Sequence record: ON286973
Origin: Escherichia phage A51.2
Reading direction: 5' to 3' (one strand)
DNA: 64,000 nt
Each line of letters starts with the position of its first letter. Within the stretch, counting starts at the first letter, position 1. Positions 55,228 through 58,870 of the stretch are shown here, one piece after another. Both the position numbers and the translations under genes were made by a program. Under the pieces are notes generated by a model. The model saw only the letters and a program-made list of their open reading frames with translations, searched no databases and was not told the origin of the DNA.

Positions 55228-55419
55228 TCACTTGTTGTTAATAAGTTCTAAAACTTTCTGTCTTACTTTGTCAAGGTCTGTTGATTCAAAAACTGTGCGA
55301 TATCCCCAACTTTGCCCATAAGAGTGACTGCAATCCCCGTAGCACCATTGCTCAATTTGATAGTATTCAAGGAACGGGTGCTGTCTAACTATGATACCAT
55401 CCCGGTTAAAAATTACCAT
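55228..55419 (-). CDS. Hypothetical protein
   Basis: ORF. Confidence 0.35.
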   Translation of the reverse strand: MVIFNRDGIIVRQHPFLEYYQIEQWCYGDCSHSYGQSWGYRTVFESTDLDKVRQKVLELINNK

Positions 55420-55482
55420 AATACATCACTCTCTGTTAGTTTATGCATATATTATACACTGCAGTTTTCAGATGTCAATCTT

Positions 55483-55734
55483 TTACAGGTTACTCCAGTA
55501 TAATCGGCATTTACATTTTGGGCAATGAGGTTCTTTTATGTAATAACCATCAGTCTTTGGAACACTTTTTGGTGCAGTTTTAAGATTGTACCTGGTAAAA
55601 CATCGGAAGCAGGTTACCTCTCCAACCTGTTGATCGTTGATCCACTCACCAGAGTAAAGCTCTTTCTTGTTTCTCATAATTCTCTCCCAAATCCTCTGCA
55701 ATCTTATACCAAAATCTCCAGCCAGAAAGCACAC
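55483..55734 (-). CDS. Small zinc-ribbon protein
   Basis: CFRCF ... CPKCKC cysteine pairs. Confidence 0.4.
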   Translation of the reverse strand: MCFLAGDFGIRLQRIWERIMRNKKELYSGEWINDQQVGEVTCFRCFTRYNLKTAPKSVPKTDGYYIKEPHCPKCKCRLYWSNL

Positions 55735-55928
55735 GGGAACACTTTGAGGATTGAATCTTTACTTGGCTCGGAAGTTCTTTTTCCGTATGGTAGGTAGAAA
55801 TACCCTCCTGCAGATTCGAATATAGCTCCTTCGGTTGTATCTACCACAGCAAGAATTAAGATTTTAGTCTCCACAGTGCTCTCCTCTCTTAGTTGTTGTG
55901 GAGACTATATCACCTCAGAAGATGGTCG

Positions 55929-56468
55929 TCAACACTTTTTGTACTCTACTACAACCACATCAATATCTGTGGTTGCAAGATTAATTACATCTTCTACATG
56001 TTCCCACTTTAGACCGCCAATACCGCATCCAATTTTAGGAATGTAGAACGGCAATGACACACCTTTGAATACCTCGTTGACTCGCTCAAAACCTTTCATG
56101 ATTGAGAAGTATTCAGCATTGGGCCCTGGGTAGAACTGGGTATACAGGTTGATTCCATATACGACCCTGTTCTTGGCAAAATGCTCCCAACAAGAAAACA
56201 TACCCAGCTTGTCTAGATTACCATAAGCAGTTTCTTTGTCGGCTGCCAGTGCTTGAGGGAACTCACGGGCAATATCTTTCGCTATACCTGCACCCATTGT
56301 GTGAAAGCAGTTACAACCGTGGATCATGTGGCCTGACCCTTTCTTGAAAATGGAGATTAGATCTCCACCTACAGTATCAATAATCACGGTATGCCAGCTC
56401 CTCTTCCGCAATTTCAAAAAACTCAGTCCAGCACTGTGGCATATTGGAGTTGCCGAAGTGGCTTTCAT
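55929..56468 (-). CDS. Macro-domain protein (DarG-like ADP-ribosyl hydrolase fold, putative)
   Basis: GDLISIF ... HMIHGCNCFHTMGAGIAKDIAREFP fits the macro-domain GD ... H-x-C-N ... G-x-G-(I/V)-A pattern; start uncertain (ATG 56468 or GTG 56486) and overlaps the upstream ORF by over 90 nt. Confidence 0.55.
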   Translation of the reverse strand: MKATSATPICHSAGLSFLKLRKRSWHTVIIDTVGGDLISIFKKGSGHMIHGCNCFHTMGAGIAKDIAREFPQALAADKETAYGNLDKLGMFSCWEHFAKNRVVYGINLYTQFYPGPNAEYFSIMKGFERVNEVFKGVSLPFYIPKIGCGIGGLKWEHVEDVINLATTDIDVVVVEYKKC

Positions 56469-56802
56469 AGTAAAGGTTCTCACCACTTGGAAGATAGAAA
56501 TCTGTTACCTCATAGAATCCACAATCGTCGCACTCACCTTCTTCAAACTTGGCCTCAACCTTAATACCGAGGAAGGTGAAAAGTTTATGGATATCTTCAG
56601 TTTCGAACTCCCAGTGAATGTTGTTTTCCGCATCGGTGTAGAACTGGATCAGCAGACCCTTGTCCAGTTTACCAAAATACTCTGTGAAGTAACTTCCTTC
56701 CCAGAAATCTTTATGACAAATAATATCCATGCGTTTGCCCATAATAATGGTGTGAGCGTTTTGGGCATCGTCACGAATCAGTTTTGGCATTTCATAGATC
56801 AT
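56377..56802 (-). CDS. Hypothetical acidic protein
   Basis: 141-aa ORF; 3' end overlaps the macro-domain ORF in another frame. Confidence 0.4.
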   Translation of the reverse strand: MIYEMPKLIRDDAQNAHTIIMGKRMDIICHKDFWEGSYFTEYFGKLDKGLLIQFYTDAENNIHWEFETEDIHKLFTFLGIKVEAKFEEGECDDCGFYEVTDFYLPSGENLYYESHFGNSNMPQCWTEFFEIAEEELAYRDY

Positions 56803-56870
56803 CTTAGTTCTCCTGGTTCAACAGGTGGTGGCGCTACAGGAAGATCATAAAACATAGCTATCACAGTCTC

Positions 56871-57068
56871 TTACACAGGAATTGCTTCAAACAGGCCGTT
56901 ATCTATACCGTCCTTCAGATAGAGATTATATTCTATGTCGGTATCTGTGTAAAGGGCAGCATCCAGCATTCTATCTGTGAGTCCATCCATTGGGTGGATA
57001 AACCACCACCCACGCCAGTCAAAGTAACAGCCTGGTGCATCTTCTCTTACACGGATTCGATAAATCAT
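56871..57068 (-). CDS. Hypothetical protein
   Basis: ORF. Confidence 0.35.
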   Translation of the reverse strand: MIYRIRVREDAPGCYFDWRGWWFIHPMDGLTDRMLDAALYTDTDIEYNLYLKDGIDNGLFEAIPV

Positions 57069-57164
57069 GGGCAGTGGCCTCCTGTTAGTTATACATCCCA
57101 GTTTTCTTCGTTCATCACGTCCTCCCGTTCTATGAAGTTATAATTGCACACCTTTCAATCTGTG

Positions 57165-57581
57165 TCAACAGAAAACTTCAACAAATTCTTCCACAGTTTT
57201 AATGTCGTGGGAAAAAGGTTTACGGCTATAACGGGCAATAGCACTATCAACCACCGCCCGGTACTCCAAATCTTCAGAATATTTCATGAAGCATTGTAGC
57301 GTCTCTGGACAGATAGCTAAATAGCTCCACCACCCCTCTTCAGATTGGTAGTCGAATCCCATACTATCCAACCATGAAGCATATACGCCTGCACCCTCAA
57401 GCCAGTGAGTATTTTCATCCAGAAACTTGTTAATAGACATGTGAGCTTCTAAGCATTTATCCAGCTCTTTTCCGTTAACCAGCCACGCACTGACCGTGGC
57501 GCATCCAAGGTCTACAGATTGAGTTGACAGGTTGTATTGGTCATAGTTCTCAGGCTTAACAATGATATCTTCTAATGTCAT
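57165..57581 (-). CDS. Hypothetical protein
   Basis: ORF. Confidence 0.4.
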   Translation of the reverse strand: MTLEDIIVKPENYDQYNLSTQSVDLGCATVSAWLVNGKELDKCLEAHMSINKFLDENTHWLEGAGVYASWLDSMGFDYQSEEGWWSYLAICPETLQCFMKYSEDLEYRAVVDSAIARYSRKPFSHDIKTVEEFVEVFC

Positions 57582-57643
57582 TTTTCAGATCTCCTTATAC
57601 AAAAATGCCCCACCCTTTCGGGCAGGGCTATGTTAACTAGATG

Positions 57644-58870
57644 TTAAAAAGGGATGTCATCATCAAAGGTATACTGTGCTGGATTCTGATCCATTGGGTC
57701 ATCTTCCTCATCATTTACAGGAGGAGCGTCTACAGTGTTTTGCTGTGGAGCTGCTTCCTGTTTGGCAGCCTGGGGTTCTTGATAGTCAGTTGACCCAGCA
57801 CCGTTCTTGATCCAATCGTACAACGGTTCAGCCAGATTAGTCAAGACATCTTTTGCTTCTGCAGTAATTGCCGCTGCAAAATCATCAACTTTCGTTTTCT
57901 TGTCAATACGGCGACAAGCGTTCAACACCGCATTACCGACACTGGCACCTACTTCATCTTCAGTTCGGTTGGTGGCTTGAGCATACTCTTTCTTAAGCTC
58001 AATGGTGACTACGTGCAGTGTTTTAGCCACGCCCAGTGGGTCGTCTACCTTAAACCCGCGATCCAGGATGATCTGCAACGCATTGATGCTATGCCCCGTT
58101 TCCACACCGATAGGGTCGTAAGAGGATTTACGCTTGCCACCGGAGCCTTGAGTGCCGTTCTCTGCCTTAGGGGGATAGGCTTTGAAACCGCTGATAATGT
58201 TTCCGGTGTCTTTGTCAACAATGGCTGCAACACGACCACCTACCACCAGGTCTTTAAGCTGCTCATCAGTTACAACCATAGCACCTTCGCCAATCTTGTG
58301 GTCATTAACAGTAACCACGTTGCCAACAATCTGAGTCACATCGCCATAGATGCGTAAAACGTCCTGATTGGCATTCTGCTGAGGTTTCTGCTTCTGGCCT
58401 TGTGATTGTGCACCTTGTTGCTGTTTTTGCTGCTGAGTCGCTGCTGGAGCCTCTCCTGCACCCAGCTTGACCATCTTAGCCAGTGAGCCTTTGTAATAGG
58501 TCTTACCGTTATGCTCGTTTGCCTTCAAAGGGATATTTACGATCCATCCCGGCGTTACGGTTTCCCACTTGTCATCAATTTTAACAGAGACAGAGTCTTG
58601 ATGACCAGGTTTAAGCAGCTTATCACCCATGCTGATCCAAACTTCTTCACCACCTTGAAGCAGGTTATCAGAGGAATCCAGTTCAGAAATCAGTAAAGAG
58701 ATGGTGTGGCTGGATTCAATTTTCTTACCTTGCCACACAGTGGTTTTAATACCTGTTGTAGGATCAGCACCTTTGATAGGCTTGATGCTGACACGTTTAA
58801 TCATGCCGTGAGCCAGTAAAACAGTTTCACGCGGATTCATCGGGTTAGCGAATTGTTGAATAACGCTCAT
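57644..58870 (-). CDS. SSB-like protein with canonical C-terminal acidic tip DDDIPF (putative ssDNA-binding protein)
   Basis: C-terminus ends ...AQYTFDDDIPF, matching the bacterial SSB tail; Gln-rich low-complexity linker mid-protein; AAGGAGA RBS. Confidence 0.5.
   Translation of the reverse strand: MSVIQQFANPMNPRETVLLAHGMIKRVSIKPIKGADPTTGIKTTVWQGKKIESSHTISLLISELDSSDNLLQGGEEVWISMGDKLLKPGHQDSVSVKIDDKWETVTPGWIVNIPLKANEHNGKTYYKGSLAKMVKLGAGEAPAATQQQKQQQGAQSQGQKQKPQQNANQDVLRIYGDVTQIVGNVVTVNDHKIGEGAMVVTDEQLKDLVVGGRVAAIVDKDTGNIISGFKAYPPKAENGTQGSGGKRKSSYDPIGVETGHSINALQIILDRGFKVDDPLGVAKTLHVVTIELKKEYAQATNRTEDEVGASVGNAVLNACRRIDKKTKVDDFAAAITAEAKDVLTNLAEPLYDWIKNGAGSTDYQEPQAAKQEAAPQQNTVDAPPVNDEEDDPMDQNPAQYTFDDDIPF

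What the first reader, a model, noticed from the sequence alone, without database searches (positions are those of the whole stretch)
55929..56802. DarG-like macro-domain protein overlapping its upstream ORF by over 90 nt
The macro-domain signature (GD ... HMIHGCNCFHTMGAGIA ... FP) predicts an ADP-ribose-binding or ADP-ribosyl hydrolase protein, a class used to reverse ADP-ribosylation of DNA or protein (DarT/DarG-type conflicts). Its N-terminal domain boundary requires a start (ATG 56468 or GTG 56486) that overlaps the 3' end of ORF 56377..56802 in another frame by about 92-110 nt. That is unusually long, and could mean translational coupling, a programmed frameshift fusion, or a sequencing frameshift.
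Basis: partly seen in the sequence, partly recalled or inferred. Interest (0 to 1): 0.6.

Follow-up and report, generated by a model that had tools for sequence, protein, structure and literature searches.

The report
Phage anti-DarT macrodomain gene, start miscalled
This is the already annotated macrodomain gene of an rV5-like E. coli phage, a relative of the phage T4 protein that defeats the bacterial DarTG2 defence, and its supposed 90-110 nt overlap with the upstream gene comes from picking the wrong start codon; the real overlap is an ordinary 11 nt.

Summary
The window is an rV5-like Vequintavirus. The macro-domain ORF is real, but the long overlap is not. The gene starts at GTG 56387, not ATG 56468 or GTG 56486. 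It encodes 152 aa and overlaps the upstream ORF (56377..56802) by 11 nt (GTGATTATTGA), with a GAGGAG Shine-Dalgarno 10 nt upstream.

Evidence for the start:
- All ten annotated relatives I opened use this start.
- Two relatives carry an in-frame TGA three codons upstream of it, and the two long-form start codons are lost in others.
- T4 Tk.4 aligns residue 1 to residue 1 (39% identity, E 3e-43).
- The 152-aa product gives a complete macro fold (pLDDT 96.9).

The protein belongs to the Tk.4/AdfM family (phrog_335), and T4 Tk.4 was shown in 2025 to be required for resistance to DarTG2. The closest solved folds are TARG1, Poa1p, DarG and SCO6735.

It is not a DarG. It lacks the DarT-binding domain and has an invariant Gln where DarG has its catalytic Lys, as in SCO6735, which cleaves thymidine-linked ADP-ribose from DNA.

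The orthologue in phage Bas54 is non-essential on E. coli K-12. Verdict: a known gene with an ordinary overlap, of low interest.

The parts
55929..56387 (-). Macrodomain gene (152 aa plus stop), an orthologue of rV5 ORF209 / T4 Tk.4 (AdfM family, phrog_335). It starts at GTG 56387.
   Evidence: All annotated relatives use this start. It aligns end to end with T4 Tk.4. AF2 gives pLDDT 96.9 with beta-1 at residues 2-8. It hits phrog_335 at E 5.5e-59.
56388..56486 (-). Stop-free 33-codon stretch in the macro frame. It is not part of the gene; it is the 3' part of the upstream ORF read in its +1 frame.
   Evidence: There is an in-frame TGA in Murica and JLBYU08. ATG 56468 is ACG in Phage 203, and GTG 56486 is GCG in FFH2 and typing phage 14. 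Distant homologues align only from residue 34. Stop-free runs of this length occur in 14.5% of +1-frame stretches.
56377..56802 (-). Upstream ORF of 141 aa. It is acidic (pI 4.37, net charge -19), belongs to phrog_8157, and its function is unknown.
   Evidence: There is no Pfam, PADLOC or NCBIfam hit. The AF2 model is weak (pLDDT 73) and has no significant PDB fold match.
56377..56387 (-). The real 11-nt overlap, GTGATTATTGA: the macro GTG start to the upstream ORF's TGA stop.
   Evidence: Read directly from the sequence. It is invariant in the nine aligned genomes (the window and eight relatives).
56398..56403 (-). GAGGAG Shine-Dalgarno-like motif, 10 nt upstream of GTG 56387.
   Evidence: It is conserved in the nine aligned genomes. 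An RBS is annotated at the same place in phage Murica.
56347..56367 (-). 7-bp hairpin (TGGAGAT-cta-ATCTCCA) followed by TTTT, inside codons 7-14 of the macro gene. Phage Murica annotates it as a 'terminator'.
   Evidence: All cells are paired in all nine genomes, with one compensatory G-C to U-A change, but this is not significant (82 of 500 shuffles reach it). The terminator scan did not call it.

Best explanation
The feature is an ordinary, already annotated early accessory gene of an rV5-like Vequintavirus. Translation starts at GTG 56387 behind a GAGGAG ribosome-binding site. The gene overlaps the stop of the preceding 141-aa gene by 11 nt, so the two genes are probably translationally coupled.

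The 152-aa product is a stand-alone macrodomain of the TARG1/DarG/SCO6735 (ALC1-like) class and a member of the phage Tk.4/AdfM family. By inference from T4 Tk.4, PhiKZ AdfM and SCO6735, it binds ADP-ribose attached by a host DarT2 toxin to thymidines in single-stranded phage DNA and hydrolyses it, restoring replication. It therefore acts as an orphan antitoxin.

Its active site carries the conserved Asn26 and an invariant Gln84 at the position of the DarG/TARG1 catalytic lysine. That is the SCO6735-type arrangement.

Shown here: the start codon, the fold, the family membership and the active-site residues. Inferred: the substrate and the anti-DarTG2 role in this phage.
For: Start codon:
- Ten annotated relatives call a 459-nt gene with an 11-nt overlap.
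- Murica and JLBYU08 have an in-frame TGA upstream of the GTG, and the alternative starts are lost in other relatives.
- JSE Tk.4 (66% identity) starts at the equivalent residue after its own intergenic spacer.
- T4 Tk.4 aligns 1:1 from residue 1, with 39% identity and E 3e-43.
- Most homologues in the 5.8-billion-protein search are 145-160 aa.

Fold:
- AF2 gives pLDDT 96.9 and pTM 0.91.
- Foldseek top hits are TARG1, Poa1p, T. aquaticus and M. tuberculosis DarG, and SCO6735.

Family:
- The window protein, T4 Tk.4 and JSE Tk.4 all fall in phrog_335.
- The family profile's best PDB hit is the M. tuberculosis DarG macrodomain, E 1.1e-14.
- The PADLOC DarG model hits at 1.7e-12.

Active site:
- N26, Q84, G120 and G122 are invariant in 65-67 homologues.
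- Q84 aligns with DarG K80, TARG1 K84 and SCO6735 Q85.
- Q85 and N27 are essential for SCO6735 hydrolysis of thymidine-linked ADP-ribosyl-DNA (PMC9411070).

Function in relatives:
- T4 tk.4 is conditionally essential on DarTG2, and a knockout is sensitised.
- PhiKZ AdfM removes DarT2 marks in vitro (PMC13309987).

Accessory nature:
- bas54_0092 is disrupted at 31 of 31 TA sites and classed non-essential on K-12.
- Natural truncated and deleted alleles exist.
Against: No experiment has tested the Vequintavirus protein against DarT2. I found no report of DarTG2 sensitivity for rV5-like phages.

Identity to the tested T4 protein is only 39%. The biochemically tested phage AdfM (PhiKZ gp104) has a Lys, not a Gln, at the catalytic position.

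Macrodomains of this class also act on protein-linked ADP-ribose, O-acetyl-ADP-ribose and ADP-ribose-1''-phosphate. The substrate cannot be read from the sequence.

The SD-to-start spacing of 10 nt is at the long end, and GTG is a weaker start codon.
Confidence: 0.72

Rival explanations
1. The macrodomain reverses a different ADP-ribosylation. Candidates are protein or RNA ADP-ribosylation by another host defence ART (CmdTAC-like or similar) or by phage or host enzymes. Alternatively it degrades an ADP-ribose-derived metabolite such as O-acetyl-ADP-ribose. DNA marked by DarT2 would then not be its target.
For: The top structural match is TARG1, a protein de-ADP-ribosylase. Several metagenomic homologues are named 'O-acetyl-ADP-ribose deacetylase' by their sources. 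SCO6735 also acts on protein substrates. There is no direct test in Vequintavirus.
Against: The only member of this family with genetic data, T4 Tk.4, was the single significant hit on DarTG2. The Gln/Asn active site matches the enzyme shown to cleave thymidine-linked ADP-ribosyl-DNA. The TARG1 Asp125 of the Lys/Asp dyad is Gly here.
Confidence: 0.15
2. It is an ADP-ribose-1''-phosphate phosphatase (Poa1p-like), as implied by the RefSeq label 'phosphatase'. It would process a by-product of RNA ligation or tRNA splicing.
For: RefSeq names it 'phosphatase', and the T4 note says 'contains A1pp phosphatase motif'. Poa1p is among the top sequence and fold hits.
Against: The label is an old motif-based transfer, not an assay. 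The Poa1p matches have lower TM-scores (0.70-0.71) than TARG1 and DarG (0.74-0.77). No source of Appr>p or Appr-1''-p is known in E. coli phage infection (my own knowledge). T4 genetics point to DarTG2.
Confidence: 0.06
3. The macro protein starts at ATG 56468 or GTG 56486, or is made as a +1 frameshift fusion with the upstream ORF. Alternatively the arrangement is a sequencing frameshift.
For: The macro frame is open for 33 codons upstream of GTG 56387 in the window and in six of the eight aligned relatives. The macro frame is +1 relative to the upstream ORF.
Against: There is a TGA in the extension in Murica and JLBYU08, and the start codons are not conserved. No SD precedes 56468 or 56486. 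The extension has no counterpart in the listed T4-like and other distant homologues, whose alignments begin around query residues 22-41, most often at 34. The same 11-nt junction occurs in independently sequenced genomes, and 114 records cover at least 80% of the region. The 152-aa product is a complete domain. Both genes occur separately elsewhere.
Confidence: 0.02

Closest known systems
T4 Tk.4 = AdfM (anti-DarT factor Macrodomain; bioRxiv 10.1101/2025.11.20.689424)
   Same: Both are stand-alone macrodomains of about 150 aa. They align from residue 1 to the end with 39% identity (E 3e-43). Both fall in PHROG phrog_335 and share the HGCNCFHTMG and NLYTQ.PGPN motifs, including the Gln at the catalytic position. 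Both are non-essential on K-12.
   Different: The phage family differs (Vequintavirinae against Straboviridae) and so do the neighbours: vs and tk.3 in T4, an acidic 141-aa ORF here. The anti-DarTG2 role has been tested only for T4.
Krischvirus (JSE/RB49) Tk.4
   Same: This is the closest relative outside Vequintavirus, at 66% identity and the same length. Krischviruses also carry a homologue of the upstream 141-aa ORF at about 35% identity.
   Different: In Krischvirus the two genes lie about 10 kb apart and tk.4 has its own intergenic spacer.
PhiKZ gp104 AdfM (Morgan et al., Cell Rep 2026, PMC13309987)
   Same: It is a phage-encoded orphan DarG2-like macrodomain, shown to remove DarT2 ADP-ribose from DNA and to protect the phage.
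   Different: PhiKZ AdfM keeps the DarG-type catalytic Lys (K78) and is imported into the phage nucleus. The window protein has Gln84 and comes from a phage with no nucleus. I did not compare the two sequences directly.
DarG antitoxin of DarTG2 (M. tuberculosis and T. aquaticus; PDB 5M3I, 5M31, 5M3E)
   Same: The macro fold matches (TM 0.74-0.76). It is the best profile-to-PDB sequence hit (E 1.1e-14). Asn and the Gly-rich loops are conserved.
   Different: There is no C-terminal DarT-binding domain: only profile positions 9-143 of 329 are matched. The NCBIfam equivalog score is 44 bits against a cutoff of 250. The catalytic Lys80 is replaced by Gln. No darT lies adjacent.
Streptomyces coelicolor SCO6735 (PDB 5E3B) and Bacteroides BT1257
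   Same: The Gln (Q85) sits at the catalytic-Lys position with a supporting Asn (N27), and there is no Lys/Asp dyad. SCO6735 cleaves thymidine-linked ADP-ribosyl-DNA.
   Different: These are bacterial chromosomal genes. Their mobile loop after the Gln is longer; the alignments need a 5-6 residue insertion there. Identity is about 22%.
Human TARG1/OARD1 and yeast Poa1p
   Same: These are the top Foldseek matches (E 4e-10 and 3e-9) and belong to the same ALC1-like macro class.
   Different: The TARG1 catalytic K84/D125 dyad is absent here (Q84, G124). These enzymes act on protein Glu-ADP-ribose and on ADP-ribose-1''-phosphate.

Membership tests
Macro domain (Pfam PF01661) | Score above the Pfam gathering threshold | tested here: met
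   25.2 bits against a cutoff of 22. Most homologues carry a precomputed PF01661 hit.
Macro domain (Pfam PF01661) | Three-layer alpha/beta/alpha macro fold | tested here: met
   The AF2 model has pLDDT 96.9. There are 165 PDB matches with E <= 0.001; those listed are macrodomains or designed enzymes built on a macro-like scaffold.
ALC1-like / TARG1-DarG-SCO6735 class of macrodomains | Closest solved relatives by sequence profile and by fold are members of this class | tested here: met
   Profile hits: DarG 1.1e-14, BT1257 3e-14, SCO6735 4e-13, TARG1 7e-13. Foldseek top ranks are TARG1, Poa1p, DarG and SCO6735, while viral nsP3 and MacroD-type domains score much worse.
Phage Tk.4 / AdfM family (phrog_335) | Full-length homology to T4 Tk.4 with the same domain limits | tested here: met
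   BLASTP covers residues 1-150 against 1-152, with 39% identity and E 3e-43. All three proteins hit phrog_335 over the same profile positions, 54-205.
Phage Tk.4 / AdfM family (phrog_335) | Protects the phage against DarTG2 and removes thymidine-linked ADP-ribose from DNA | not testable with these tools
   Shown genetically for T4 only. This needs plaque assays and a de-ADP-ribosylation assay.
DarG antitoxin (NCBIfam NF048014 equivalog; PADLOC PDLC02990) | Score above the equivalog cutoff, with full-length macro plus DarT-binding C-terminal domain | tested here: not met
   44.2 bits against a cutoff of 250. Only profile positions 8-144 of 338, and 9-143 of 329, are matched.
DarG antitoxin (NCBIfam NF048014 equivalog; PADLOC PDLC02990) | Catalytic lysine (K80) | tested here: not met
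   An invariant Gln84 aligns with K80.
DarG antitoxin (NCBIfam NF048014 equivalog; PADLOC PDLC02990) | Encoded next to a darT toxin gene | tested here: not met
   The neighbouring ORFs have no Pfam hit apart from a phage zinc-binding domain. PADLOC and NCBIfam were run only on the upstream ORF and found nothing. No DarT appears in the annotated relatives.
Programmed frameshift fusion or long overlapping gene pair | The overlapping frame and its start codon are conserved open in relatives | tested here: not met
   There is a TGA in two of eight relatives, ATG 56468 is lost in one and GTG 56486 is lost in two. The extension has no counterpart in distant homologues.

The most novel reading that the evidence does not exclude
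Phages may have recruited two mechanistically different macrodomains as anti-DarT2 factors. One is the Lys-type, DarG-like enzyme of PhiKZ. The other is the Tk.4-type clade, to which this gene belongs, with an invariant Gln at the catalytic position. The second type would work by the SCO6735-style water- and backbone-mediated mechanism. A further, weaker possibility is that the conserved hairpin plus T-run in codons 7-14 attenuates expression of the gene after the upstream ORF.
Probability: 0.4. Interest if true: 0.3.

Novelty: already known. Interest (0 to 1): 0.15.

Why it matters
It matters little beyond annotation hygiene. The gene has been annotated since the rV5 genome (ORF 209, 'Tk.4 conserved hypothetical protein'), and the function of its family was assigned in 2025-2026.

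There are two useful residues. First, Vequintaviruses can be predicted to be naturally resistant to DarTG2, which is relevant when choosing therapeutic phages against DarTG2-carrying E. coli. Second, the Tk.4-type AdfM clade carries Gln rather than the DarG lysine, which is worth noting for mechanistic work and inhibitor design.

Tried and rejected
- **Longest-ORF start (56486 or 56468).** Rejected by comparative data.
- **+1 frameshift fusion.** Rejected. The macro frame is +1 relative to the upstream ORF, but the frame is closed by TGA in two relatives, and both proteins exist as stand-alone genes elsewhere.
- **Sequencing error.** Rejected because independently sequenced genomes show the same junction.
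- **Upstream acidic ORF as a partner.** I asked whether it is a DarG C-terminal-like or DNA-mimic partner of the macrodomain. It has no family hit in Pfam, PADLOC or NCBIfam. The AF2 model is weak: pLDDT 73, and only one of five models is above 55. No PDB fold match has E < 0.04. An exhaustive HMMER search found only 11 relatives; one was a spurious hit to a eukaryotic VWD/TIL mucin-like protein. Adjacency to the macro gene is not conserved in a divergent relative (L011) or in Krischvirus. No evidence for a partnership was found.
- **Hairpin as a terminator.** My scan did not call it. The local fold z-score is -0.46 and covariation is not significant.
- **RNA genes.** tRNA and Rfam scans of the whole window found nothing.
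- **Literature.** A search for DarTG2 tests on Vequintavirinae found none.

Full report
**What the window is.** Megablast of 55400-57700 against phage genomes gives 119 records, 114 of which cover at least 80% of the query at 80-99% identity. They are rV5-like Vequintavirus phages of E. coli, plus a set of records labelled 'Campylobacter phage'. The region is a run of small minus-strand genes downstream of a 408-aa gene. One relative annotates that gene as a putative single-stranded DNA-binding protein.

**The observation.** The longest open frame for the macro protein is 55929..56486 (-), 185 codons starting at GTG. It contains GD...HMIHGCNCFHTMGAGIA and passes the Pfam Macro threshold at 25.2 bits against 22. 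The upstream ORF 56377..56802 (-), 141 aa, is in a different frame.

However, the macro frame holds another start, GTG 56387. It lies directly before MIIDTVGGDLISIF, with GAGGAG (56403-56398) 10 nt upstream. ATG 56468 and GTG 56486 have no comparable Shine-Dalgarno motif. With GTG 56387 the overlap is the 11-nt GTGATTATTGA.

**Which start is real.**
- Every annotated relative I opened calls a 459-nt gene that overlaps a 426-429-nt upstream gene by 11 nt. These are Murica, RudolfGeigy, JLBYU08, O157 typing phage 14, FFH2, Phage 203, JEP1, rV5 itself (ORF 209, 'Tk.4 conserved hypothetical protein') and MaxBurger.
- In an alignment of the window with eight of these relatives, Murica and JLBYU08 have an in-frame TGA three codons upstream of the GTG. 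The equivalent of ATG 56468 is ACG in Phage 203. The equivalent of GTG 56486 is GCG in FFH2 and typing phage 14. The GTG, the GAGGAG and the 11-nt junction are invariant.
- tblastn of the 185-aa form against 50,697 phage records finds 2,732 records. Outside the close rV5-like relatives, the listed alignments begin between query residues 22 and 56, most often exactly at residue 34, which is the GTG. The one exception is a weak 30%-identity match in a Pseudomonas phage that extends to residue 2.
- JSE Tk.4 (66% identity) starts at the equivalent residue, 15 nt after the end of the vs gene.
- T4 Tk.4 aligns from residue 1 to residue 1 with 39% identity and E 3e-43.
- Most homologues in the 5.8-billion-protein collection are 145-160 aa long.
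- The 152-aa product is predicted as a complete domain with pLDDT 96.9 and pTM 0.91, and strand beta-1 spans residues 2-8.
- A 33-codon stop-free run in the +1 frame of a coding region is unremarkable. It occurs in 14.5% of such positions inside long ORFs of this window.

The 'over 90 nt' overlap is therefore an artefact of taking the longest ORF. A frameshift fusion and a sequencing error are both excluded by the same data.

**What the protein is.**
- Foldseek of the model against the PDB ranks TARG1 first (E 4e-10, TM 0.75). Poa1p, the T. aquaticus and M. tuberculosis DarG macrodomains (TM 0.74-0.76), the T. africanus DarTG complex, BT1257 and SCO6735 follow. Alphavirus and coronavirus macrodomains score far lower.
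- A profile of 65 homologues finds the M. tuberculosis DarG macrodomain as the best solved relative, at E 1.1e-14.
- The PADLOC DarG model hits at 1.7e-12, but only over positions 9-143 of 329. The NCBIfam DarG equivalog scores 44 bits against a cutoff of 250.
- So this is a DarG-like macrodomain without the DarT-binding half. It is not a DarG.
- The window protein, T4 Tk.4 and JSE Tk.4 all belong to phrog_335.

**Active site.** Fourteen columns are invariant across 65-67 homologues: G24, N26, C27, M31, G34, A36, D50, N80, Y82, T83, Q84, P117, G120 and G122. In four independent profile alignments, Q84 falls on DarG K80 (NFPTK), TARG1 K84 (LITK) and the Gln of SCO6735 and BT1257 (NMIGQ).

For SCO6735, Q85A and Q85E abolish hydrolysis of thymidine-linked ADP-ribosyl-DNA and N27S nearly does so. 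The authors propose a water-mediated mechanism (PMC9411070). TARG1 Asp125 corresponds to Gly here. The Tk.4-type phage clade therefore has the SCO6735-type site. The biochemically characterised PhiKZ AdfM instead keeps the lysine, K78 (PMC13309987).

**Function.**
- A 2025 transposon-sequencing preprint found tk.4 to be the single significant T4 gene needed on a DarTG2-expressing host. It showed that a clean knockout is sensitised, and it named the gene adfM (10.1101/2025.11.20.689424).
- Independently, PhiKZ gp104 was shown to remove DarT2 marks from DNA and to protect the phage.
- The same preprint's tables list the Vequintavirus orthologue bas54_0092 (78894-79352) as non-essential on E. coli K-12, with 31 of 31 TA sites hit. 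The upstream bas54_0091 has 21 of 23 sites hit. I confirmed that Bas54 is phage MaxBurger and that these are the orthologous genes.
- Natural truncated and deleted alleles exist.

All of this fits an accessory counter-defence gene. That the Vequintavirus protein acts on DarT2-modified DNA is an inference from homology and has not been shown. Rival substrates (protein or RNA ADP-ribose, O-acetyl-ADP-ribose, ADP-ribose-1''-phosphate) cannot be excluded from sequence alone.

**The upstream ORF.** It is very acidic (pI 4.37, net charge -19) and belongs to phrog_8157, of unknown function. It has no Pfam, PADLOC or NCBIfam match. It gives a weak AF2 model with no significant fold match. An exhaustive search of 1.84 billion representatives finds only 11 relatives.

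Homologues at about 35% identity occur in Krischvirus (RB49/JSE) phages, but not next to tk.4. In a more divergent Vequintavirus-like contig the homologue is followed by an unrelated Cys-rich gene, and no macro gene lies within 2 kb. I therefore see no evidence that it is a functional partner. The 11-nt overlap suggests only translational coupling.

**Verdict.** The macro-domain identification and the DarT/DarG-type reading are right and are now backed by literature on a direct homologue. The unusual overlap, which was the reason for flagging the finding, is not real. The gene is already annotated in public records. Interest is low.

Noticed in passing
window 56347-56367 (-): A 7-bp hairpin plus TTTT lies inside codons 7-14 of the macro gene, 10 nt after the upstream ORF's stop. 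Phage Murica annotates it as a terminator. It pairs in all nine aligned genomes. The window carries a compensatory G-C to U-A change that also alters two amino acids (E8G, L14I). The sample is too small for significance: 82 of 500 shuffles reach the observed value.
   Followed up: partly
window 56638-56647 and 56130-56139 (-); protein P0015: A 10-nt direct repeat, CCAGTTCTAC (encoding QFY), occurs in both the upstream ORF and the macro gene, 508 nt apart. A 121-aa protein on a 135.5-kb assembled contig matches the predicted deletion product exactly: upstream ORF residues 1-55 are fused in frame to the macro protein from Q84 on. This would be a natural knockout of both genes. Two other truncated macro alleles (P0017 of 92 aa, P0049 of 97 aa) were also seen.
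   Followed up: partly
window 55929-56802; loci L006 and one search hits: Outside Vequintavirus, both the macro gene (66% identity) and the upstream acidic ORF (about 35% identity) have their closest relatives in Krischvirus (RB49/JSE) T4-like phages. There they are unlinked. This suggests gene exchange between these two E. coli phage groups.
   Followed up: partly
window 55400-57700 (one search hits H1, H2, H5, H13): The best database matches (98.8% identity) are unannotated records labelled 'Campylobacter phage' (C15, A12a and others, MG0656xx). Their sequences are rV5-like E. coli phage genomes, so the host label looks doubtful.
   Followed up: no
window about 57582-57643: Several relatives (MaxBurger/Bas54, C2, phiWec189, SophiaRose) match in two pieces with about 640 extra bases. 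They carry a homing endonuclease gene between the SSB-like gene and the 138-aa ORF. The window lacks this insertion and has a strong terminator-like hairpin at 57607-57628 (-) instead.
   Followed up: partly
window 55451-55478 (-): A perfect sigma-70 consensus promoter (TTGACA, 16 nt, TATAAT) lies about 30 nt upstream of the 63-aa ORF 55228..55419. It falls between that ORF and the zinc-binding-domain ORF 55483..55734.
   Followed up: no
window 56380-56802 residues 76-124; protein P0130: The Cys- and acid-rich stretch of the upstream ORF matches seven repeats in a 3189-aa VWD/C8/TIL mucin-like eukaryotic protein at E 2e-10. This is most likely a compositional or cysteine-pattern artefact.
   Followed up: partly
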